NCBI GenBank assembly: GCA_037144045.1
Contig: JBAWXN010000004.1
Span: forward strand, 2,839 to 66,838
Direction of reading: 5' to 3'
Length of the DNA: 64,000 bases
Origin: a bacterium
Lineage (GTDB): Bacteria; Patescibacteriota; Minisyncoccia; Phycocordibacterales; UBA1006
This document shows, piece by piece, positions 6,990-46,912 of the stretch. Both the position numbers and the translations under genes were made by a program. The notes beneath the pieces were generated by a model, which saw only the letters and a list, made by a program, of their open reading frames with translations, was not told where the DNA came from and made no database searches. Position 1 is the first letter of the stretch; each line of letters starts with the position of its first letter.

Positions 6990-7715
6990 GTGTATATGGA
7001 AAACAGAACGATTCTCCTCGTTGAGGACGGTGAACCAATTATTAGAATATGGATGGAACTCTTTAAAGAGATTCCTTACATTGTTCCCGTGTTTGTAAAA
7101 ACAATTACAGATGCGCGTGAGGCTCTTAAAAAAATCCAATTCGATGCTATTTTTCTTGACGGCACCCTTGATGCCAAAGAAAAATTTTCTCCAGAACCTG
7201 AAACCTTACCACTATTTTTGGAAATATGGAAACAATATACCGGTAAAATATTTTCTATAACCGATAATAATGGTTATATAGAAATTATGAAAGGATATGG
7301 TATTAATCACGTCTTAAAAGAAGACGTGCCTGATTTCGCAGCAGTTTTGTTTAAGGAAACTCCACTAAGTCTTGTTCCACGTACGAGTTTTTATGAAATT
7401 AAACCAGGAGCACTCCTCGTGGTACAACTCATGAAAAACGAAATTCTTACGCACCATAAAACCTACATTGCGGAGATTGTCTCTACTGGTCCACTCTTAT
7501 TAAAAATTTACGAAGGAATTACTCCTTTCAAACCAGGAAGCTATCGCATTTTGGAAACTGCATCACGCCTTATTCAGGGTACTCTTGTTGAACAAAATGC
7601 GCTTTGTAGGGATTACGCACGTAGTGAGCAAGGCCCCCTCCAATCAGGAATTAGCCTTTTCGGAGGAAAATTAGGAGACGTACTTTCTTTTCCTAATCTA
7701 ACAGAAGCTGTATAA
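6990..7715 (+). CDS. orphan receiver (REC) domain protein with an unknown C-terminal domain
   Basis: 241 aa; residues 5-115 align to CheY-like REC (LLVEDGEP, phospho-acceptor D in AIFLDGTL, T in FSITD, K in HVLKE); no histidine kinase or DNA-binding domain nearby. Confidence 0.5.
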   Translation: MYMENRTILLVEDGEPIIRIWMELFKEIPYIVPVFVKTITDAREALKKIQFDAIFLDGTLDAKEKFSPEPETLPLFLEIWKQYTGKIFSITDNNGYIEIMKGYGINHVLKEDVPDFAAVLFKETPLSLVPRTSFYEIKPGALLVVQLMKNEILTHHKTYIAEIVSTGPLLLKIYEGITPFKPGSYRILETASRLIQGTLVEQNALCRDYARSEQGPLQSGISLFGGKLGDVLSFPNLTEAV

Positions 7716-7742
7716 GCTCTCACTGATTTACCCTATCAAAAA

Positions 7743-7760
7743 CCCTAGGCATGCCTAGGG
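7743..7760. terminator. bidirectional hairpin terminator between the REC gene and uvrC-like
   Basis: Perfect palindrome ccctaggcatgcctaggg flanked by an A-run and a T-run. Confidence 0.55.
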
Positions 7761-7761
7761 T

Positions 7762-9006
7762 TTATTTTTGTAAAAATTTTTTTGCGCGTACTTGTTTATG
7801 AAATGTAATTGCAAAACGATGTGCTTCACTATTAGCAAGAAGAATATCGCGTTTATATTTTTTGATGATTACCTCATCACCATGAATTGCTTTTGGTTTG
7901 TGGCGCTCATCTTTAATGACAGCAACAATCGTCGTTGCAACATTCATTTCTTTAACGACTTCTTGAGCAATACCATACTGCCCAAGCCCACCATCAATTA
8001 CCACGACGTAAGGGTTCTGCCATTCTGGATGGTTAAATCTGCGAGTAAGCATTTCTCGGAGGTTGCCGTAATCATCATTACCCTTTCCTGATTTAATAGT
8101 AAATTTTTTATATTCTGACTTATCTACCTGACCATCAGTAATCACCGTCATGACCCCAACAGTACTGGTTCCACCATGATGTGCAATGTCATAGGCCTCA
8201 ATGCGCGTGCCCTTGCTTGATATATCGTGTCGATCATCTTTAATAAGTGCGACATCATTAATATGATTCAGCGCAAATATTTTTCGCTTAATAATTTCCG
8301 CAGCCTCAAATGCTAAATGCTTTGCATGGGTATGCATAGCGCGTTCAAGGTCTTTAATAATTTTAGTCTTTTTTCCTTCAAAAAATAATTTAATATTGGT
8401 AATATTTTTTAGATATTCAGCACGTGCAGCACTATCAGATGTATCTGGCGACAATCCTAACTGCTTATAGAAGCGTTCATTTTCAGGGCTGTCCGCACGA
8501 AAATCACGAAACGGAAAAATGCCACGAATTATTTTAAGCGCATCACGCAGTGAACCACCATTCGGATATGGTCCAAAGGTATATTTAATTTTTCCATTGA
8601 AGTTAATACGCGAAATTCGCCCAGTGATTTCCATAACTTTTAAATCACGTGAACGTACAATCATTACTCGTGGCCACAATTCGTCACTGATAATCACTTG
8701 GCAAAAACTCTTATTGTCTTTTTCTTTAACGTTATACTTAGGTTGATATTTTTTAATAAGATTAGCTTCAAGGATGAGCGCTTCAAGCACTGAATCCGTT
8801 TGCTGGTATTCAACCGTAGTAGCCTGTACCGTCATGTCTAAAATACTCGGCCCGCGAGTATCGATAATATCTTTTGAAAAATAACTCCGCACGCGATCGC
8901 GCAGACTAGTTGCTTTTCCAATATACAGAATTTCTTTACCTTTTTTCCAGAAATAGACCCCTGGAGTATCTGGTAATTGTAATCGTACCAAATCTTGACT
9001 TTTCAT
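7762..9006 (-). CDS. uvrC: UvrC-like excinuclease subunit (GIY-YIG, UVR and RNase H-like domains) lacking the C-terminal HhH domain
   Basis: 414 aa; N-terminal GIY-YIG (GVYFW..ILYIGKA), UvrB-interaction motif (LERAMHTHAKHLAFEAAEIIKRK), RNase H-like endonuclease region (YDIAHHGGTSTVG...VVVIDGGLGQ); it ends without (HhH)2. Confidence 0.8.
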   Translation of the reverse strand: MKSQDLVRLQLPDTPGVYFWKKGKEILYIGKATSLRDRVRSYFSKDIIDTRGPSILDMTVQATTVEYQQTDSVLEALILEANLIKKYQPKYNVKEKDNKSFCQVIISDELWPRVMIVRSRDLKVMEITGRISRINFNGKIKYTFGPYPNGGSLRDALKIIRGIFPFRDFRADSPENERFYKQLGLSPDTSDSAARAEYLKNITNIKLFFEGKKTKIIKDLERAMHTHAKHLAFEAAEIIKRKIFALNHINDVALIKDDRHDISSKGTRIEAYDIAHHGGTSTVGVMTVITDGQVDKSEYKKFTIKSGKGNDDYGNLREMLTRRFNHPEWQNPYVVVIDGGLGQYGIAQEVVKEMNVATTIVAVIKDERHKPKAIHGDEVIIKKYKRDILLANSEAHRFAITFHKQVRAKKFLQK

Positions 9007-9048
9007 ATAAATATGCTATAGTATATCAGAACAAAAACAAAAAACAAG

Positions 9049-9792
9049 ATGCCGCATATAGAAATCTCTTACTCAATTATTTTAGTTATTTGGGCAAGTT
9101 ATGTACTTAGTGGCCTAGTTAAGCTCGCTAAGCTCTACTTTGAAAAGAAGGCTACTATTGCCCCAATAGCTTCCTTATCTGGAAGACATCGCTCCGCTGG
9201 CTTATTACTACGAGTTCTTGCAAAAAAGTATCAATTCAATGCTATTTTTATCGGAAGAAAAGAAGCTGCTTATCAAGAAGCAACTGCATACTTTACCTAT
9301 TCTGAAAATAGCGTATCACTTCTTGGAGATTATTATAAGAATATGGACGCGCAAAAAACATTTATTGTGTTCCATGAATTTGGACACGTACTTTTTCAAC
9401 ACTACCTATGGAGACTTATTGAAGATCCATGCAGATCCTGGTTTACTTTTATTACTCAGGACGGTAGTAATAAATTTTTCTTTTTATTTTTTATTAACGC
9501 AGGTTCGTTTGGGATGCCGCTTATATCAATACTGTCATTACTTACTTTTATAAACATCCCTATCCTTATTGTTTTTATCGACGAGATCATAGCATCTACG
9601 TTGGGAACCATTGCTATGTATCGCCACTGCAATCTTTCAAGGAAGCAACTGTTTGCAAGTAGTGCGTTTTATACTTTTGCACTCTCAACCTATGTTGAAT
9701 CACTAAATAAAGTATACCAAACTGGATTTGTACTCTACTTCGCTACCATACTCTTTAAACAAGTATTACAGCAACTTAATTTATTTACATAA
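9049..9792 (+). CDS. membrane protein with an HExxH zinc-metallopeptidase motif
   Basis: 247 aa; TM segments and an FHEFGHVLFQH motif; followed by a hairpin terminator at 9793-9814. Confidence 0.45.
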   Translation: MPHIEISYSIILVIWASYVLSGLVKLAKLYFEKKATIAPIASLSGRHRSAGLLLRVLAKKYQFNAIFIGRKEAAYQEATAYFTYSENSVSLLGDYYKNMDAQKTFIVFHEFGHVLFQHYLWRLIEDPCRSWFTFITQDGSNKFFFLFFINAGSFGMPLISILSLLTFINIPILIVFIDEIIASTLGTIAMYRHCNLSRKQLFASSAFYTFALSTYVESLNKVYQTGFVLYFATILFKQVLQQLNLFT

Positions 9793-15581: not shown

Positions 15582-16496
15582 TCACAACTCGGCAATTAAT
15601 CTTTTTGCAAAATCTTGAATCGGGAAATACGTTCCTGGATTAATGGTTTTAGTAACCGAAAAAACTACTATGATATAGTTTCGCCCATCGGGAAGCGCTG
15701 CAACACCTGCATCGTTACTCCATCTAATAATTGCCCAACCCTTCTTAATAATCGCCTTAAGAAGTGACAATATTCCATGATTATAGAGATTCGTTTCAAG
15801 CCAGCCACCTTTTGCATAATAATGTGAAAATTGGTCTGGTAACCATAAACCAAGCTTTGATTGTCTATTAAATTGAGTCATGTATTCTTTTAATTTTTGA
15901 GACACAAAAGGACTCACCAACTTCCCCTTTTCTACCAAGTAGAAAAATTCCGCAAAATGGCGTGAACAAGACATGGTGGTGCTTGAAAATTGATAGGGTT
16001 TTTCTTCTTTTATTCTATCTAAAAATTTTCGAGTTACCTCGCTCCCATGCCAATTATTTTTGTAAATAATATTTTCAGTAATTGATTCACGTCCAACAAG
16101 ATCAATTAAACAATTTGAGGCCGTGTTATCTGAACGAGTTAACATAAGATCTAATAACTGATCAATACTCACTTCTTCTCCTGCGCTGAGCAATTTACGG
16201 GTATCACCTGGAAAAATACGCGCATCTTTGTCTACATCATTAGGTGCTTTAACAATAATTTTTTGCGCCAATGTAACATCACCTATTTCTATGCGTCGTA
16301 ATACCTCTGCACCAATAAAAACTTTATACATACTGGCAGGATAAATAAAATGGTCCAAATTATAACCAAAAATTTCTGGTTCAGACTGGTTTAAGTCAAC
16401 CACCGCAAAACTCATTTCATATTCTGAAATAAGGTCCTTAAAAACACTCTGAAGTTCGGCACTTCTTGTTTTATTTTCAGTGAGAATTCTTGTCAT
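15582..16496 (-). CDS. class A beta-lactamase-fold serine hydrolase (beta-lactamase / DD-peptidase-like)
   Basis: 304 aa; SxxK (SMYK), SDN (TRSDNTASN) and KxG (AKGGW) motifs in the canonical order. Confidence 0.6.
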   Translation of the reverse strand: MTRILTENKTRSAELQSVFKDLISEYEMSFAVVDLNQSEPEIFGYNLDHFIYPASMYKVFIGAEVLRRIEIGDVTLAQKIIVKAPNDVDKDARIFPGDTRKLLSAGEEVSIDQLLDLMLTRSDNTASNCLIDLVGRESITENIIYKNNWHGSEVTRKFLDRIKEEKPYQFSSTTMSCSRHFAEFFYLVEKGKLVSPFVSQKLKEYMTQFNRQSKLGLWLPDQFSHYYAKGGWLETNLYNHGILSLLKAIIKKGWAIIRWSNDAGVAALPDGRNYIIVVFSVTKTINPGTYFPIQDFAKRLIAEL

Positions 16497-16924
16497 GATG
16501 ATTGTGTCCAGAAACCATTAAGTTCTCGCTTGCCTGCAAGGTATTCTTCAATACGCCACTTAGTTGGCTTGGTAATGGTTTCAGGTAAAGCAGTTAATGG
16601 AAACCACGCTGCTTTTTGAATTTCAATTTCAAGTTTCGGAATTATTTTATTAGGAGCAGTTGCAACAAAAATAAATACCGTGTCACGCTTACCTTCTGCT
16701 TTTGAGCAGTATTCCCCTAACTGATAATCAGCATCACTTATCATTATTCCTGTTTCCTCACGTAATTCACGGAGTGCACCTTGTGCAGGATTTTCTGTTT
16801 TCTTTATTCCTCCTCCAGGTAAATTCCAATAATTTGATTTCCGAGGTTGGACTAATAATACTTGCTGATCATGCACAACAAGCACCCGTGCACCAAATGT
16901 TACGGGCTTTACAATCCTCCAATA
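16493..16924 (-). CDS. NUDIX hydrolase
   Basis: Nudix box GGGIKKTENPAQGALRELREETGI; the ORF track extends to 17080 but the internal M at 16924 or 16993 is the likelier start because the longer version overlaps the upstream dipeptidase gene. Confidence 0.65.
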   Translation of the reverse strand, partial: YWRIVKPVTFGARVLVVHDQQVLLVQPRKSNYWNLPGGGIKKTENPAQGALRELREETGIMISDADYQLGEYCSKAEGKRDTVFIFVATAPNKIIPKLEIEIQKAAWFPLTALPETITKPTKWRIEEYLAGKRELNGFWTQSS

Positions 16925-41684: not shown

Positions 41685-44519
41685 TTAAATAACAATGCTA
41701 ATGATTTTTTTGGGGATAAAAATAAATTTCTTTACTTCTTTACCATCGATCCATTTTTGAACTTCAGGAATTGCGAGTACTTGTTCACGGACCGTAGATT
41801 CTGTCGCGTCAACGGCGAGAGTGATTTCTGCACGGACCTTTCCATTTACTTGAACCCCAAGAGTCACAGTATCATCAACAACTAGTGCTTCATTATAGGT
41901 TGGCCATGCGGTTACGTGAATTGATTCTTGTTCATCGAGAGTATTCCAGAGTTCTTCAGTCATATGCGGTGCAAATGACGCAAGAAGTTTCAAAAACATC
42001 TTCCAGTCGTCTTTATGAATCGTAGATTGCTTATCAAACTCGTTCATGAAAATCATCATAGCGGAAATTGCCGTGTTGAAACTAAATTTTTCGATATCTT
42101 CTGAAACTTTTTTGACGGTTTTGTGAAGTGTTCGCACTAACGATTCTTCGGTAGGTTGAGTGCCAACTTTTTCCTGGGCCGCCCAAACACGCTCCAAAAA
42201 TCTACGCACTCCTACTACCCCGTTTGGATCCCACGGAAAACTTGCAACGGTTCCGTACGGTCCCATGAATGCTAAATACATACGCACAGTGTCAGCCCCT
42301 AATCGATTAACAATTGCGTCAGGATCAATAACATTTCCTTTTGATTTAGACATTTTTTCACCATCTGGGCCAAGGATAAGTCCTCGATTACGACGAATCA
42401 CATACGCTTCGTTATGATCTACTAATCCTAGATCGTGTAACGCCTTCACCCAAAATCGTGAATACAGTAAGTGCATCGTGGTGTGTTCTGCCCCGCCCAT
42501 GTACAGATCAATAGGCATCCATGATTTAATTTTTTCTGGGTCAGCAAATACACCATCGTTGTTATTATCTAAATAGCGATAGAAATACCATGATGAATCG
42601 ACGAACGTATCCATGGTTTCTACTTCGGGTCGCCATCCAGCACCAAATATTTTTTCTGTACGTTCAACAAGCTCCTTGCTGCGCGCAAGAGGAGATGTTC
42701 CGTCTGGAGTATGATCAACATCAGTTGGTAATAACCATGGCAAATGTTCAACTGGAATCGGATGTGCCTTACCTGCTGGGTCATAGACAATAGGAATCGG
42801 AACCCCCCAATAGCGCTGCCGTGAAATTCCCCAATCGCGCAATCGATAGGTTTTTACGAGTTTCCCACCAACAAATTCAGTTATTTTTTTCTTTGCTTCT
42901 TCTGAATCAAGACCAGTGAACACTCCAGAATAAATCAGCGATCCTGGTTCAACAAATGCAAAATCATGCCCATCCCATCGTGACAGCCAATCATTTAATT
43001 CTGCATGAACAATACGCGGATATACCAACTCCGATTTTGGAAGCCAGAGAAATTCATGCTTTCCTTCTTCTTCTGCCAATAGTGGAACGCGTGTCTCATC
43101 AACTAAATCAAACATTACTCCGTGCGTATAGGCGACCCTGTTTTCATCTTTATGGGCAGCAAAATACTCAGCACGAACAGGCCCTCCTAATATTTTTACA
43201 AATTTAAGATTGATATAACCCGTCTCTTCACGAATTTCACGCTCAATCGTTTCAATAATACCTTCACCTGATTCCCTGCCGCCCATAGGAAACGTGGTCC
43301 ATTTGAATTCTTTCGAATACATGCATAAATACGTATCTGTTTTGGGATTTCTCACAATAGCTTGTACATTCCATCGCTCCTGACTCTTCTTTCCAGGCAC
43401 TGGCGGATTTTTCACATCTATACGATTAGGAATAACCACTTCTTTTATTGGTAACTGATATTTTTTAGCAAACTCAAAATCGCGTTCGTCATGAGCAGGC
43501 ACCGCCATCACCGCTCCAGTTCCGTATCCTGCCAACACATAGTCTGCAATCCATACAGGAACAGATTCATCATTTACAGGATTAACTGCAGTTACCCCTT
43601 TGAGTTCAACACCTGTTTTTTCTTTGCTTTGTTGACGATCGAGTTCTGATTTTTTATTTGCACCTTGAACATACGCATCAATTTCTGATTCGTTTACAAG
43701 TCCCTTCTTTAATTCTGCAACCAATTCATGTTCTGGCGCAAGTACTACATAGGTAACCCCAAACAAGGTATCAGCACGCGTGGTGAATACTTTAATCTTC
43801 TTTTCAGATCCTGAAATAGGAAATTCAATTTCTGATCCTTCAGATCGCCCGATCCAATTTTTCTGTGACTGCTTGATAGCATGTGGCCAATCAAGCGGAT
43901 CCAGGTCATCAATTAATCGATCTGCATATTTTGTAATACGCAACATCCATTGTTCTTGATTTTTCTGAACCACTTCCGTTCCACATCGTTCACATTTTCC
44001 ATCGGTTACTTGTTCATTTGCAAGAATAGTTTGGTCTTTCGGGCACCAGTTTACTGATGTAACATCACGATACACGAGATCCTTTTTCAAGAACTCGTTA
44101 AACATCCACTGGGTCCATTTGTAATATTTCGGGTCACACGAAACTACTTCCCGATCCCAATCAAACATCGCCCCCATTGATCGCAATTGATCACGCATGG
44201 TTTCCATGTGTTTATAGGTCCATGTCTTTGGGTCTTCACCAAGTTTAATAGCCGCATTTTCTGCAGGTAATCCGAACGCATCAAATCCCATCGGGTAGAG
44301 CACATTAAATCCCTTCATGCGTTTGTAGCGCGCAAAAATATCCGGCACCGCAAATGCATACCAGTGTCCCACATGGAGGTTTCCTGATGGATAACTAAAT
44401 TCTACTAAGGTGTAGTAGTTTTCTTTCCCAAGGACTGAATCAGACACTTTGTAGATGCCTTGTTTGTCCCATTCCTGCTGCCATTTTTTCTCGATATCTT
44501 TGTGATCATAGGGTTTCAT
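41685..44519 (-). CDS. leuS: leucine--tRNA ligase carrying an inserted NUDIX hydrolase domain
   Basis: 944 aa; HVGHW (HIGH), TTRADT editing motif, AVPAHDERDFEF, YRLRDWGISRQRYWG, KMSKSKGN; residues about 365-525 carry a full Nudix box GGRESGEGIIETIEREIREETGY. Confidence 0.9.
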   Translation of the reverse strand: MKPYDHKDIEKKWQQEWDKQGIYKVSDSVLGKENYYTLVEFSYPSGNLHVGHWYAFAVPDIFARYKRMKGFNVLYPMGFDAFGLPAENAAIKLGEDPKTWTYKHMETMRDQLRSMGAMFDWDREVVSCDPKYYKWTQWMFNEFLKKDLVYRDVTSVNWCPKDQTILANEQVTDGKCERCGTEVVQKNQEQWMLRITKYADRLIDDLDPLDWPHAIKQSQKNWIGRSEGSEIEFPISGSEKKIKVFTTRADTLFGVTYVVLAPEHELVAELKKGLVNESEIDAYVQGANKKSELDRQQSKEKTGVELKGVTAVNPVNDESVPVWIADYVLAGYGTGAVMAVPAHDERDFEFAKKYQLPIKEVVIPNRIDVKNPPVPGKKSQERWNVQAIVRNPKTDTYLCMYSKEFKWTTFPMGGRESGEGIIETIEREIREETGYINLKFVKILGGPVRAEYFAAHKDENRVAYTHGVMFDLVDETRVPLLAEEEGKHEFLWLPKSELVYPRIVHAELNDWLSRWDGHDFAFVEPGSLIYSGVFTGLDSEEAKKKITEFVGGKLVKTYRLRDWGISRQRYWGVPIPIVYDPAGKAHPIPVEHLPWLLPTDVDHTPDGTSPLARSKELVERTEKIFGAGWRPEVETMDTFVDSSWYFYRYLDNNNDGVFADPEKIKSWMPIDLYMGGAEHTTMHLLYSRFWVKALHDLGLVDHNEAYVIRRNRGLILGPDGEKMSKSKGNVIDPDAIVNRLGADTVRMYLAFMGPYGTVASFPWDPNGVVGVRRFLERVWAAQEKVGTQPTEESLVRTLHKTVKKVSEDIEKFSFNTAISAMMIFMNEFDKQSTIHKDDWKMFLKLLASFAPHMTEELWNTLDEQESIHVTAWPTYNEALVVDDTVTLGVQVNGKVRAEITLAVDATESTVREQVLAIPEVQKWIDGKEVKKFIFIPKKIISIVI

Positions 44520-44543
44520 AAGTCCTCTGACTATATCAAAAAA

Positions 44544-44561
44544 CCCTCAAAAAATCGAGGG
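44544..44561 (-). terminator. rho-independent terminator; copy 1 of a thrice-repeated hairpin
   Basis: ccctcaaaaaatcgaggg with a T-run on minus; near-identical copies at 44896-44913 and 46170-46187. Confidence 0.55.
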
Positions 44562-44568
44562 TTTGGGA

Positions 44569-44883
44569 TTATGCTTCTGCATGATCTCGTGTTTGAAGTA
44601 TAAAAGCAACATAGGATTTTACATCACCTATTTTTTTCAATGAGTATGCATGTGTTGGTGCAATAAGTTCAGGATCCTCATCTTTTTCCACCATTTGCAT
44701 AGCGTAATCAATTTTCGCTTCATCTAGAAGATTTTTAAAGTCTTTACCCAACCTTCCTCCTGGATAAAGAAGTATTGGTATCTGTGTATGGCTCATATAT
44801 TGTATTTCCCATAAGAGTATCATACCGATTCTTAAAATCAAAGATGTTTCGTGCATCCAAGGATTATTCTTGAAATTTCTCAT
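44569..44883 (-). CDS. hypothetical protein
   Basis: 104 aa ORF (possibly starting at the internal MSHTQ); no motif recognised. Confidence 0.4.
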   Translation of the reverse strand: MRNFKNNPWMHETSLILRIGMILLWEIQYMSHTQIPILLYPGGRLGKDFKNLLDEAKIDYAMQMVEKDEDPELIAPTHAYSLKKIGDVKSYVAFILQTRDHAEA

Positions 44884-44895
44884 TGATTAATAAAA

Positions 44896-44913
44896 CCCTC
44901 GAAAAATCGAGGG
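44896..44913 (-). terminator. rho-independent terminator; copy 2 of the repeated hairpin
   Basis: ccctcgaaaaatcgaggg. Confidence 0.55.
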
Positions 44914-44920
44914 TTCAGAA

Positions 44921-45235
44921 TTAAAGAGTATATCGAGACTCGTCATTAACTTTTAACTTCGAAAGTACGGGATTAGGGACGTTTTCCATTACTTTGACTG
45001 TCTCAGAATCACTATCAATTTTTTTAATACACTCTGCAATCTTGTCAAAATTTTCCTGCTCTTGTTCTTCTGAAATAAGCGCAAACCTTACACAGGTAGT
45101 TAGTGTTTCATCGTTTTCAATCAGGAGGTTAATGTTATTTTCAAGGGCAAACTTTCTAAGTCTCCCTCGAAACATTACTCCTTGTAGATTATTTACCGAT
45201 TTAATTTCATAAATGTCCCATTTTAAAATATTCAT
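44921..45235 (-). CDS. acylphosphatase-like domain protein
   Basis: DIYEIKSVNNLQGVMFRGRLRKFA...LIENDET parallels the acylphosphatase signature VxGxVQGVxFR...N. Confidence 0.45.
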   Translation of the reverse strand: MNILKWDIYEIKSVNNLQGVMFRGRLRKFALENNINLLIENDETLTTCVRFALISEEQEQENFDKIAECIKKIDSDSETVKVMENVPNPVLSKLKVNDESRYTL

Positions 45236-45237
45236 AA

Positions 45238-45723
45238 TTAAAATTTATTTACTATTGAAATATCTTGTTTTAAAATTACATCCCCTTCTCCGAATATAAA
45301 TTCGCCTTTAACTAATTTCCCCTCGATTACCTGCGGCAACCAAAACTTGTCATCAGGCCACATACTATCAAACGGCATGTTTTCTATAGTATACCAAAAA
45401 GGCTTCATTTCCTCTGATTCAATAGGTGTGTCTAACCATTTTTCCGTAATGTATACATGCACTAACTGATCAAAGTCAGGTCGATGTGGAAAGTAAAAAG
45501 AAAGTTCTGCGACTTTTAATAAGTCATCTTTTTCAACACTAACACCAATCTCTTCGCTGGATTCACGAATTACAGCATCTTCAACCGTCTCACCTATGGC
45601 AAGTTTCCCACCAACCCCATTCCATCGCCCAACTCCAAAACCTCTTTTTTTCATCGCAAGGAGAATTTCGACTATCTTAGCATCTTGTTTTTTAACCAAA
45701 AAAAGTAACGTAGTATTTCGCAT
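45238..45723 (-). CDS. NUDIX hydrolase (MutT-like)
   Basis: Nudix box GGKLAIGETVEDAVIRESSEEIGV; probable start at MRNTTLLF. Confidence 0.7.
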   Translation of the reverse strand: MRNTTLLFLVKKQDAKIVEILLAMKKRGFGVGRWNGVGGKLAIGETVEDAVIRESSEEIGVSVEKDDLLKVAELSFYFPHRPDFDQLVHVYITEKWLDTPIESEEMKPFWYTIENMPFDSMWPDDKFWLPQVIEGKLVKGEFIFGEGDVILKQDISIVNKF

Positions 45724-45733
45724 ATAATTACTA

Positions 45734-46144
45734 TTATAAAATAATGTGACCATCATCACCTATCGGTCGTTTTTCAATGTTTTCTTCTGTAAAAGGAATG
45801 TCCTTAGCGTAATCAGGTATATAAGAAGGAGTTATTTTGTCATCATGATTATCAGTAGTACGATTCGTCTTCGAACGCTTACGTCGCAGCGCACGCGCCT
45901 CATACCAATACATAGCCATTTGTAAATGTTTTATAGCTTCTTCTGTTTCTTTACACGGCAGAACATTATTTAAATATTTCGTTCTGTCGATTAAAGCGCG
46001 TAACACCTCTTGTGTTTGTAACCCAGGCCATTCTTTTGCGTAATTAACTGCCCCGCCTGAGCGTTTAATAAATTTTAACACTTGAACTTCACTGTCGCCC
46101 AACTGCCTTAATTCGTAGATATGACCCGGGTCGATTATTTTCAT
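45734..46144 (-). CDS. hypothetical protein
   Basis: 136 aa ORF with a basic central region; no motif recognised. Confidence 0.4.
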   Translation of the reverse strand: MKIIDPGHIYELRQLGDSEVQVLKFIKRSGGAVNYAKEWPGLQTQEVLRALIDRTKYLNNVLPCKETEEAIKHLQMAMYWYEARALRRKRSKTNRTTDNHDDKITPSYIPDYAKDIPFTEENIEKRPIGDDGHIIL

Positions 46145-46169
46145 ATACTTATTATACCATAAGAAAAAA

Positions 46170-46187
46170 CCCTCAAAAAATCGAGGG
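46170..46187 (-). terminator. rho-independent terminator; copy 3 of the repeated hairpin
   Basis: ccctcaaaaaatcgaggg immediately after the TrmH-family gene stop. Confidence 0.55.
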
Positions 46188-46189
46188 TT

Positions 46190-46912
46190 TTAGCGTTTCC
46201 AATTATCGAGTACAATCGCGGTTGCAATTCCCACATTAAGCGATTCTGCGTGACCATACCGTGGAATAGTAATTTTCTGAGTAATATATTTTTCAAGGTC
46301 AGGATGAATACCATGCGATTCACTTCCCATGAGCAAGATTCCTTGATCAGGGAACGTATACGTATGTACATCTTCACCTGATAAATCAGCCCCAAGCACA
46401 GCGACTCCTTGATGATTTTCTAAAAATTCCTTAAGGTCTTCGTAATACACCTGCACCCGCGCAAATGAACCCTTGGTAGCACTAATTACTTTCGGGTTAT
46501 ACACATCAACCGTATTTTTTGACGCAACAATTTTTTTAATACCGTACCAATCAGCAATACGCAAAATGGTTCCTAAATTCCCTGGGTCATTTACATCTGA
46601 CAATGCGAGCACGATTTCGTTTTCTAGTGAAAATGCAGGTACTTCTTTCTGGTGAAAAATTCCAATTGCTTTATCATTTGATGACAAGGTTCCCAGTTTT
46701 TCTAATCCTGTTTTTTTAACTTCGTGAATTTTTTCAGCAATATGTTTCACTTCAGATTTATGATCGAATAGAAATTCAGAAGACGCTACAAGCGCCTCAA
46801 GTTTGTAATCAGATACCAGGAACTCTAAAACACTTACTTCTCCTTCTACGAGGAATAATTTATGTTCGTTTCGCCCTTTTTTATCATGGAGTTCCTTGAT
46901 TAATTTCTTCAT
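46190..46912 (-). CDS. SpoU/TrmH-family RNA 2'-O-methyltransferase
   Basis: 240 aa; SPOUT motifs (DPGNLGTILR, LLMGSESHGI, ESLNVGIATAI). Confidence 0.75.
   Translation of the reverse strand: MKKLIKELHDKKGRNEHKLFLVEGEVSVLEFLVSDYKLEALVASSEFLFDHKSEVKHIAEKIHEVKKTGLEKLGTLSSNDKAIGIFHQKEVPAFSLENEIVLALSDVNDPGNLGTILRIADWYGIKKIVASKNTVDVYNPKVISATKGSFARVQVYYEDLKEFLENHQGVAVLGADLSGEDVHTYTFPDQGILLMGSESHGIHPDLEKYITQKITIPRYGHAESLNVGIATAIVLDNWKR

What the first reader, a model, noticed from the sequence alone, without database searches (positions are those of the whole stretch)
42945..43427. Complete NUDIX hydrolase domain inserted inside leucyl-tRNA synthetase
The LeuRS is collinear with bacterial LeuRS (HIGH, TTRADT editing motif, AHDERD, YRLRDWGxSRQRYWG, KMSKS). 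Between ...FEFAKKYQLPIKEVVIP and GSLIYSGVFTGLD..., where E. coli LeuRS has a 17-residue surface loop, it carries about 160 extra residues. These contain a textbook Nudix box GGRESGEGIIETIEREIREETGY (Gx5Ex7REUxEExGU) plus the flanking beta-strand pattern of a full Nudix fold. Aminoacyl-tRNA synthetases make diadenosine polyphosphates (Ap4A) as side products, and many Nudix enzymes are Ap4A or NDP-X hydrolases, so a covalent LeuRS-Nudix chimera is functionally suggestive. I am not aware of this architecture being described. Two free-standing NUDIX genes also lie nearby, at 45238-45723 and 16493-16924.
Basis: partly seen in the sequence, partly recalled or inferred. Interest (0 to 1): 0.7.

Follow-up and report, generated by a model that had tools for sequence, protein, structure and literature searches.

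The report
Swappable Nudix domain inside LeuRS
The essential enzyme that loads leucine onto tRNA in this tiny uncultured (Patescibacteria) bacterium carries a second, complete nucleotide-cleaving (Nudix) enzyme nested in a loop of its proofreading domain. Close relatives carry different Nudix versions, other domains or nothing at that same spot, and I found no paper describing this.

Summary

It is not an assembly artefact. The same type sits at the same site in about 70 species-level Patescibacteria genomes and is more conserved than the LeuRS backbone (59% vs 53%).

The main new point is that the site behaves like a cassette. leuS genes whose flanks are about 80-87% identical in DNA (87-96% in protein) carry unrelated Nudix types (27-28% identity), with sharp DNA breakpoints. 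Among the 120 closest LeuRS, 78 carry at least 16 insert types and 42 carry none. Relatives also nest Ham1, HAD, alpha/beta-hydrolase, ASCH, DUF559 or extra Nudix copies at this and nearby sites.

The substrate is unknown. An invariant Tyr at +17 and the structural neighbours (RppH, ApnA hydrolases) mildly favour dinucleoside polyphosphates, but no curated Nudix subfamily model is reached. The two neighbouring free-standing Nudix genes are real; the one tested shows no similarity to the insert. No paper describing this architecture was found. Verdict: a new variant of a known kind.

The parts
41685..44519 (-). leuS gene: 944-aa bacterial-type leucyl-tRNA synthetase with a nested Nudix domain. 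It is identical to GenBank MEI8224140.1, annotated 'class I tRNA ligase family protein'.
   Evidence: ORF; TIGR00396 936.5 bits vs cutoff 548.4; 100% identical to P0122; AF2 model pLDDT 87.3, TMt 0.79-0.85 to E. coli and T. thermophilus LeuRS.
44364..44375 (-). HIGH motif (HVGH, aa 49-52) of the aminoacylation site.
   Evidence: H49, G51 and H52 are invariant in 62 homologues.
43428..43862 (-). CP1 editing domain, part before the insert (aa 220-364). It includes TTRADT (43767-43784) and AHDERD (43479-43496).
   Evidence: PF13603 at 220-368, profile positions 1-146 of 185; T246, T247, R248, T251, H343, D344, R346 and D347 are invariant.
42945..43427 (-). Nested Nudix domain of the 'T1' type (aa 365-525). 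It includes an N-terminal extension with the motif D-x2-NPP-x3-K-x4-R.
43215..43283 (-). Nudix box GGRESGEGIIETIEREIREETGY (aa 413-435), matching Gx5Ex7REUxEExGU.
   Evidence: Read directly; G413, G414, E419, R427, E428, E432, T433 and G434 are invariant and E431 is conserved in at least 90% of 66 species; a strict box is found in about 65 of 74 loci.
43137..43175 (-). X-loop region RAEYFAAHKDENR (aa 449-461), with invariant Tyr452 exactly 17 residues after the Nudix box. This is the likely substrate-specificity determinant.
   Evidence: R85, A86, E87, Y88, F89, A90, H92, K93 and N96 (insert numbering) are invariant; for the role of the X-loop and the Tyr marker see PMC5389931 and PMC6856373.
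42935..43454 (-). Variable cassette as defined by DNA comparison (gene nt ~1066-1585, aa ~357-527). The breakpoints fall after FEFAKKYQL(P) and before G-x-L-x-x-SG-x-F.
   Evidence: Nucleotide identity to L081, L082 and L083 is mostly 78-96% in the adjoining flanks and drops to about 30-60% inside.
42840..42944 (-). CP1 editing domain, part after the insert (aa 526-560), leading into YRLRDWGISRQRYWG.
   Evidence: Aligns to T. thermophilus LeuRS 375-448; G526 and S531 are invariant.
42342..42356 (-). KMSKS motif (aa 722-726).
   Evidence: K722, M723, S724 and K725 are nearly invariant.

Best explanation
This is the housekeeping leuS of a Patescibacteria (Paceibacteria/Nomurabacteria-like) genome. 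It encodes a bifunctional protein.

The LeuRS body keeps all aminoacylation and editing motifs. A self-contained Nudix pyrophosphohydrolase domain (aa 365-525) with an intact catalytic motif bulges out of a naturally variable loop of the CP1 editing domain, equivalent to T. thermophilus loop 363-374.

That loop is a cassette site. Conserved flanks (FEFAKKY... and ...NSGxF) probably allow homologous recombination, so alleles with different Nudix types, other small domains or no insert circulate among related lineages.

The T1 type found here is an uncharacterised Nudix subfamily that lives mostly inside LeuRS. Its most likely chemistry is hydrolysis of a nucleoside-diphosphate-X compound. Dinucleoside polyphosphates (Ap3A/Ap4A and related caps) are the leading single candidate, which would tie clearance of adenylate-derived by-products to the synthetase.

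Shown: the architecture, the fold, the catalytic motif, conservation across the clade, and cassette replacement.
Inferred: catalytic activity, recombination as the mechanism of exchange, and substrate class.
For: LeuRS identity and intact motifs.

Same site and intact box in about 70 species genomes.

Purifying selection: mean insert identity is 59% against 53% for the backbone, and the insert is the more conserved part in 77% of 1891 pairs.

Orthologous locus: the downstream genes in L082 (with insert) and L083 (without) are TPR protein, MurJ and LepA. The window has a TPR-repeat ORF and two ORFs of matching lengths in the same order; I did not run family searches on those two ORFs.

Cassette behaviour:
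- P0123 has flanks 96% and 91% identical in protein but an insert only 28% identical.
- P0124 is 94% / 27% / 87% (N-flank / insert / C-flank).
- P0125 is 75% / 76% / 66%.
- The DNA breakpoints are sharp.
- There are at least 16 insert types, interleaved on the backbone tree.

The family is small and mostly inside LeuRS: 338 hits among 1.84 billion representatives, and 101 of the best 150 carry LeuRS flanks.

Against: No activity was measured.

From general knowledge, LeuRS is not among the strong Ap4A producers.

The same site accepts many Nudix types with different X-loops, and also non-Nudix domains. A single chemistry specific to LeuRS is therefore not required.

Some T1 members deviate from the strict box, for example Gx5Q or REVRSE.

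The insert-less near-identical allele (L083) is 5'-truncated, so that one comparison may involve a pseudogene or a chimeric contig.
Confidence: 0.6

Rival explanations
1. Hitch-hiking house-cleaning module. The Nudix domain acts on free nucleotides (oxidised or non-canonical (d)NTPs, or NDP-sugars) and has no mechanistic link to leucylation. The CP1 loops are simply permissive sites that give a small-genome organism co-expression with an essential, steadily expressed gene.
For: Relatives nest other nucleotide house-cleaning enzymes in LeuRS: Ham1/ITPase (197 bits in P0296; also P0224), HAD_2, and up to three Nudix copies. Many Nudix types with different X-loops occupy the same site. The same type can sit at site A or site B. 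Free-standing homologues exist and most are not next to leuS.
Against: This Nudix family is overwhelmingly found inside LeuRS (101 of the best 150 representatives) rather than spread over other host proteins. Stand-alone ~280-aa proteins in Clostridiales-like contigs keep a piece of CP1 on both sides of the Nudix, which suggests the CP1 piece matters. The closest free-standing homologue lies directly upstream of an insert-less leuS.
Confidence: 0.25
2. Platform for RNA or tRNA ends. CP1 positions the tRNA 3' end. The nested hydrolases (Nudix, HAD, alpha/beta-hydrolase, ASCH, NTase-like) remove abnormal groups from tRNA or aminoacyl-tRNA, such as pyrophosphoryl or nucleotidyl adducts or N-acyl groups, or they decap RNA. 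The rapid turnover would reflect conflict with toxins or phages that target tRNA.
For: The inserts sit inside the tRNA-3'-end-binding editing domain, at two or three recurrent sites. The co-nested domains are mostly hydrolases of ester, phosphoester or amide bonds. Cassette turnover is faster than backbone divergence. The CP1-fragment+Nudix mini-proteins keep the CP1 piece. RppH-like RNA pyrophosphohydrolases are among the nearest neighbours.
Against: This is purely inferential. There is no defence-system match of note in PADLOC and no T1-type relative in viral contigs. No toxin or antitoxin was identified nearby.
Confidence: 0.12
3. Non-catalytic insertion. The Nudix fold serves as a nucleotide sensor, a regulatory module or a structural module, or is a decaying remnant.
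For: A minority of inserts have degenerate boxes, for example the T2 type GGGTEGD...KEIREETGY, or T1 members with Gx5Q or REVRSE. Non-enzymatic Nudix proteins exist (PMC5389931).
Against: In the T1 type the catalytic residues E419, R427, E428 and E432 are invariant and E431 is conserved in at least 90% of 66 species. The domain is more conserved than the essential backbone.
Confidence: 0.03

Closest known systems
Canonical bacterial LeuRS with CP1 editing domain (E. coli 4AQ7/4ARC, T. thermophilus 1H3N/2BYT)
   Same: Collinear sequence with 32-38% identity. All catalytic and editing motifs are present. The fold matches at TMt 0.79-0.85.
   Different: Canonical enzymes have a short loop (12 residues in T. 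thermophilus, 363-374) where this protein has a 161-residue Nudix domain. A 2026 survey lists PF13603 as only ever being inserted, never hosting another domain.
Free-standing Nudix hydrolases of the RppH / ApnA-hydrolase group and the uncharacterised E. faecalis protein 2AZW
   Different: Sequence identity is only 15-24%. Scores are far below every curated subfamily cutoff. This type has its own N-terminal NPP motif and RAEYFAxHKDxNR X-loop, and it is embedded in another enzyme.
Bifunctional NMN adenylyltransferase/Nudix (NadM-Nudix; 2QJO, NF003785 family)
   Same: A nucleotidyltransferase (a HIGH-motif enzyme according to PMC7824862) covalently joined to a Nudix hydrolase that acts on a product-related nucleotide.
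   Different: There the two domains are joined end to end and the Nudix substrate (ADP-ribose or NAD) is known. Here the Nudix is nested two levels deep (Rossmann fold > CP1 > Nudix) and the substrate is unknown.
IleRS with an N-acetyltransferase domain (NCBIfam NF040702 ileS_w_GNAT)
   Same: A class Ia synthetase that carries an extra enzymatic domain (listed).
   Different: The added domain is of a different family. I saw no evidence for exchangeable cassette alleles there, and that family was not examined here.
Lineage-specific insertion domains of bacterial RNA polymerase (BEAN/HABAS; PMC11515920)
   Same: Polyphyletic domain insertions at recurrent permissive sites of an essential information-processing enzyme (title and abstract seen).
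   Different: I know of no enzymatic role for the RNA polymerase insertion domains (the paper was not read beyond its abstract). Here the inserts are complete enzyme domains of many families, and they are replaced between near-identical host genes.

Membership tests
Bacterial leucyl-tRNA synthetase (TIGR00396 leuS_bact) | Whole-protein HMM score above the curated cutoff | tested here: met
   936.5 bits vs 548.4
Bacterial leucyl-tRNA synthetase (TIGR00396 leuS_bact) | Class I signature motifs HIGH and KMSKS | tested here: met
   HVGH 49-52 and KMSKS 722-726; conserved in homologues
Bacterial leucyl-tRNA synthetase (TIGR00396 leuS_bact) | CP1 editing domain with the Thr-rich motif and the conserved Asp | tested here: met
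   PF13603 214 bits; TTRADT and AHDERD present; T246, T247, R248, T251, D344 and D347 invariant
Bacterial leucyl-tRNA synthetase (TIGR00396 leuS_bact) | Overall fold of solved LeuRS structures | tested here: met
   Foldseek E=4e-77; TMt 0.79-0.85 to 2bte and 5on2
Bacterial leucyl-tRNA synthetase (TIGR00396 leuS_bact) | Leucylation of tRNALeu and editing activity | not testable with these tools
   Needs enzyme assays
Nudix hydrolase superfamily (PF00293) | HMM score above the Pfam gathering score | tested here: met
   43.1 bits (whole protein) and 45.8 bits (insert alone) vs 21.1; all 66 of 66 orthologous inserts hit
Nudix hydrolase superfamily (PF00293) | Nudix box Gx5Ex7REUxEExGU | tested here: met
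   GGRESGEGIIETIEREIREETGY at aa 413-435; key residues invariant
Nudix hydrolase superfamily (PF00293) | Nudix alpha/beta/alpha sandwich fold | tested here: met
Nudix hydrolase superfamily (PF00293) | Metal-dependent pyrophosphohydrolase activity | not testable with these tools
   Needs a biochemical assay
Dinucleoside polyphosphate hydrolase / RppH (NudH) subfamily | Invariant Tyr about 17 residues downstream of the Nudix box (Bessman marker) | tested here: met
   Y452 is at +17 and invariant in 66 sequences; marker as described in PMC6856373
Dinucleoside polyphosphate hydrolase / RppH (NudH) subfamily | Score above the curated equivalog cutoff (PRK00714 models) | tested here: not met
   Best score 21.8 bits vs cutoffs of 118-259
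Dinucleoside polyphosphate hydrolase / RppH (NudH) subfamily | Closest structural neighbours belong to the subfamily | tested here: inconclusive
ADP-ribose pyrophosphatase subfamily | Conserved Pro 16 residues downstream of the Nudix box | tested here: not met
   Position +16 is E451, which is invariant as Glu; there is no conserved Pro
NADH pyrophosphatase (NudC) subfamily | SQPWPFPxS array downstream of the Nudix box | tested here: not met
   The motif is absent from the insert sequence. Among the proteins scanned, the NudC model NF001299 matched only other ones, at 16-23 bits against a cutoff of 158, and is not listed for the insert
MutT 8-oxo-dGTPase | Score above the TIGR00586 / PRK10776 cutoff | tested here: not met
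   No hit at E<=0.01 for the insert
Intein or other self-splicing insertion | N-terminal Cys/Ser and C-terminal His-Asn followed by Cys/Ser/Thr | tested here: not met
   The insert starts N-R-I-D and ends V-E-P followed by G-S. No flanking repeats of note

The most novel reading that the evidence does not exclude
The CP1 editing domain of Patescibacteria LeuRS is a horizontally exchanged cassette platform. Two or three fixed loops accept interchangeable enzyme domains: many Nudix types, Ham1, HAD, alpha/beta-hydrolase, ASCH, NTase-like and Vsr-like nuclease. These domains would use CP1's grip on the tRNA 3' end to repair or detoxify damaged or toxin-modified tRNA or aminoacyl-tRNA ends, or to decap RNA. 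On this reading an essential synthetase doubles as a fast-evolving tRNA-protection system.
Probability: 0.12. Interest if true: 0.9.

Novelty: new variant of a known kind. Interest (0 to 1): 0.7.

Why it matters
Aminoacyl-tRNA synthetases are among the most conserved enzymes known. Their editing domains are usually described as domains that get inserted, not as hosts for other domains.

Here the LeuRS editing domain of a large uncultured bacterial clade hosts a complete second enzyme. The nested enzyme differs between almost identical host genes. This gives three things:
1. A natural example of triple nesting (Rossmann fold > CP1 > Nudix) that leaves the LeuRS catalytic and editing motifs intact and is retained across about 70 species.
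2. A well-defined permissive site, with natural breakpoints, that could be used to engineer LeuRS fusions.
3. A testable link between tRNA charging and nucleotide or dinucleotide (Ap4A-type) metabolism, or tRNA-end repair, in organisms with minimal genomes.

It also explains why NCBI names these proteins only 'class I tRNA ligase family protein', and why some free-standing Nudix proteins are mislabelled 'leucyl-tRNA synthetase'.

Tried and rejected
- **Assembly chimera:** rejected. GC is continuous, the insert is in frame, and the same architecture occurs in 74 genome loci and dozens of other assemblies.
- **Recent duplication of the neighbouring Nudix gene:** rejected. There is no BLASTP alignment between the insert and 45238-45759.
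- **Intein or mobile element with terminal repeats:** rejected. There are no splicing residues, and only short, chance-level repeats that do not sit at the boundaries.
- **Phage origin or defence system:** no support. IMG/VR gave only weak generic Nudix hits. PADLOC gave only a marginal generic hit. PHROGs gave only a generic MutT/Nudix hit.
- **Assignment to a characterised Nudix subfamily by HMM:** failed.
- **AFDB Foldseek library:** unavailable.
- **Gene neighbourhood as a general link between free-standing T1 Nudix and leuS:** only 1 of 4 cases examined is adjacent, so I did not use it as strong evidence.
- **Regex-based measurement of insert lengths:** too crude. Replaced by alignment-based and HMM-based measurement.
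- **Geometry of the Nudix site relative to the CP1 pocket:** could not be measured, because model coordinates are not exposed.
Full report
**1. What is in the window**

The ORF at 41685-44519 on the minus strand encodes 944 residues. Window 42945-43427 corresponds exactly to residues 365-525.

NCBIfam places the protein in bacterial LeuRS (TIGR00396, 936.5 bits against a cutoff of 548.4). Pfam finds the LeuRS editing domain PF13603 at 220-368, but only profile positions 1-146 of 185. It also finds a NUDIX domain at 383-501 (E=5.4e-11, 43.1 bits against a gathering score of 21.1). The insert alone scores 45.8 bits.

Against solved LeuRS structures, the alignment breaks after T. thermophilus residue 362 and resumes at residue 375. 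The 161 extra residues therefore replace a 12-residue loop inside CP1. GC content is flat across the region.

**2. Fold**

- Foldseek against the PDB returns only Nudix hydrolases.
- The full-length model has pLDDT 87.3 and pTM 0.77. The Nudix region is its most confident part (88-96 per 10-residue block).
- The full-length model superposes on E. coli and T. thermophilus LeuRS with target-normalised TM-scores of 0.79-0.85.

**3. Not an artefact: a feature of a whole clade**

A pattern scan of one genome per GTDB species, using the insert alignment, found 74 loci. All but one carry Patescibacteria or unclassified-bacterium MAG labels (Kaiser-, Yanofsky-, Wolfe- and Yonathbacteria, Paceibacterota and others); one record is labelled Thermodesulfobacteriota.

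In nearly all of the loci with a complete gene, the match lies inside a LeuRS-length ORF, with the Nudix box 71 residues after AHDxRD. About 65 loci have a strict Gx5Ex7REUxEExGU box. All 66 aligned inserts hit PF00293.

The invariant residues include the catalytic E419, R427, E428 and E432. They also include an N-terminal D-x2-NPP-x3-K-x4-R motif and the block R449-A-E-Y-F-A-x-H-K-x2-N460. The editing and synthetic-site residues of the host are invariant as well.

Among 62 full-length proteins, the insert is on average more conserved than the backbone (59% vs 53%) and is the more conserved part in 77% of pairs. Insert identity and backbone identity correlate only weakly (Spearman 0.18).

The window protein itself is in GenBank as MEI8224140.1, 'class I tRNA ligase family protein'.

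**4. The site behaves as a cassette**

I compared the 120 closest LeuRS in the protein collection by alignment. Identities to the window protein:

| Protein | N-flank | Insert | C-flank | Insert content |
|---|---|---|---|---|
| P0123 | 96% | 28% | 91% | A different Nudix type |
| P0124 | 94% | 27% | 87% | A third Nudix type |
| P0134 | 96% | none | 89% | Only 28 residues at the site |
| P0125 | 75% | 76% | 66% | The same Nudix type as the window |

At the DNA level, identity to the contigs encoding P0123, P0124 and P0134 is mostly 78-96% in the adjoining flanks, falling to about 65-75% toward the 3' end of the gene. It falls to about 30-60% between gene nucleotides ~1066 and ~1585. The breakpoints are sharp, right after FEFAKKYQL(P) and right before G-x-L-x-x-SG-x-F.

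L081 (Nudix type 4) and L083 (no insert) share 96-98% nucleotide identity in the flanks. One caveat applies: the L083 gene lacks its first ~100 codons, so it may be a pseudogene or a mis-join.

L082 and L083 share the downstream gene order TPR protein, MurJ, LepA. The window has a TPR-repeat ORF and then two ORFs of matching lengths (561 and 606 aa) in the same order, which I did not run through family searches. On this evidence these look like alleles of the same housekeeping locus.

Clustering the site contents gives at least 16 sequence types in 78 proteins, about 11 of them Nudix. The other 42 proteins have no insert. The types are interleaved on a neighbour-joining tree of the backbone.

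**5. Wider pattern**

I used an HMM built from insert-less relatives as a ruler. It finds 178 inserted segments of at least 70 residues in 142 of 191 LeuRS-like proteins. The segments concentrate at three places:
- Site A, HMM position ~210-250: 29 segments.
- Site B, position ~360-390, the site of this finding: 132 segments.
- Site C, position ~400-440: 15 segments.

Of the 178 segments, 152 fall in one Nudix cluster that occupies all three sites. The rest include DUF559/Vsr-like nuclease, ASCH, alpha/beta-hydrolase, Ham1/ITPase, HAD, a nucleotidyltransferase-like domain and several unknowns. Some LeuRS carry two or three Nudix domains.

This sample is biased towards proteins that carry inserts, because of how the sequences were collected.

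A 2026 survey of domain insertions lists PF13603 as a strictly inserted domain, with no host events among 213 cases (PMC13114784). The architecture here is outside that picture.

**6. The Nudix family itself**

A search of 1.84 billion representative proteins with the insert finds only 338 relatives at E<=1e-3, and 21 at E<=1e-30. Of the best 150, 101 carry LeuRS or CP1 flanks.

Free-standing proteins of about 160 residues with the same NPP and FAxHKxxNR signatures exist. The closest, P0005, lies directly upstream of an insert-less leuS. Three others do not.

A separate group of ~280-residue proteins has a degenerate C-terminal piece of CP1 (AHIQED in place of AHDERD) on both sides of the Nudix. 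One is encoded next to hisS on a contig that also carries an NRPS gene. A co-clustered sequence is labelled Clostridiales.

**7. How it probably works**

The host enzyme should charge and proofread tRNALeu normally, because all of its motifs are intact. The nested domain should be an active Nudix pyrophosphohydrolase, because its catalytic residues are invariant and it evolves under stronger constraint than the host.

Substrate class is inferred only. The arguments in favour of dinucleoside polyphosphates are:
- Tyr452 lies exactly 17 residues after the Nudix box and is invariant. This is the position of the specificity-determining X-loop (PMC5389931) and of the Tyr marker for diadenosine polyphosphatases (PMC6856373).
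- The ADP-ribose marker (Pro at +16) and the NADH marker (SQPWPFPxS) are absent.

The arguments against are:
- All curated subfamily models are far below their cutoffs.
- Other cassette types have quite different X-loops.

I therefore rank the readings as follows:
- A dinucleoside-polyphosphate or related NDP-X hydrolase tethered to LeuRS is the leading reading.
- A generic nucleotide house-cleaning module using LeuRS as a permissive carrier is a strong rival.
- A function directed at tRNA or RNA ends is the most novel reading that the evidence does not exclude.

**8. Known or new**

Six searches of the full-text paper library found nothing on a LeuRS-Nudix architecture; a seventh, on domain insertions in aaRS, turned up only the survey above. 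The sequences are public and carry precomputed Pfam hits, but they are annotated only generically.

The finding is a new variant of known kinds: synthetases with extra domains, and Nudix fusions such as NadM-Nudix. Its unusual features are three-level nesting and cassette-like exchange in an essential gene.

**9. What led nowhere**

There are no flanking repeats and no intein residues. There are no phage or defence-system links. The neighbouring free-standing Nudix shows no similarity to the insert. The AFDB fold library was unavailable.

Noticed in passing
window 44520-46190 (between leuS and the SpoU-type methylase gene at 46190-46912): The stretch upstream of leuS is also variable. Here it holds four small ORFs: 136 aa (hits phrog_2428, function unknown), a MutT-like Nudix of 173 aa, and two 104-aa ORFs with no family hit. 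The related contig L082 has a single GNAT acetyltransferase at this position, and L083 has unrelated genes on the other strand.
   Followed up: partly
P0033, P0036, P0043 (locus L075:6001-6837): Stand-alone ~280-aa proteins in AT-rich contigs that do not look like Patescibacteria. One is next to hisS on a contig that also carries an NRPS gene; a co-clustered sequence is labelled Clostridiales. Each consists of a degenerate C-terminal piece of the LeuRS CP1 domain (AHIQED in place of AHDERD) on both sides of a Nudix related to the insert, as if the cassette plus its CP1 flanks had been excised from a leuS.
   Followed up: partly
P0242, P0244, P0263, P0296, P0224, P0150 (relatives of the window LeuRS): Some Patescibacteria LeuRS carry two or three Nudix domains. 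Others combine Nudix with Ham1/ITPase (197 bits, inserted between the catalytic core and the anticodon-binding domain), HAD, alpha/beta-hydrolase or ASCH, and reach 1100-1376 aa.
   Followed up: partly
L076:6001-6492 and 7071-9494: The closest free-standing homologue of the insert (P0005, 163 aa, 48% identity) lies 579 bp upstream of an insert-less leuS on the same strand. Three other free-standing homologues are not near leuS.
   Followed up: partly
L083:1-1300: The insert-less leuS allele P0134 lacks about the first 100 codons, including HIGH. Homology to leuS starts abruptly after an AT-rich non-coding stretch. It may be a pseudogene, a rearrangement or a chimeric metagenome contig.
   Followed up: partly
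P0014 (L078:2951-3433): A 160-aa free-standing Nudix is named 'leucyl-tRNA synthetase' in GenBank. The name was presumably transferred from Nudix-containing LeuRS. The Nudix-containing LeuRS themselves are named only 'class I tRNA ligase family protein'.
   Followed up: no
window 43470-43530 (aa 331-350 of LeuRS): In the full-length AF2 model, the segment around the editing-site motif GAVMAVPAHDERD has the lowest confidence of the protein (pLDDT 57-69), although its sequence is invariant. I did not examine whether this reflects mobility of the editing pocket next to the insert.
   Followed up: no
It has many weak NCBIfam Nudix matches, all below their cutoffs.
   Followed up: partly
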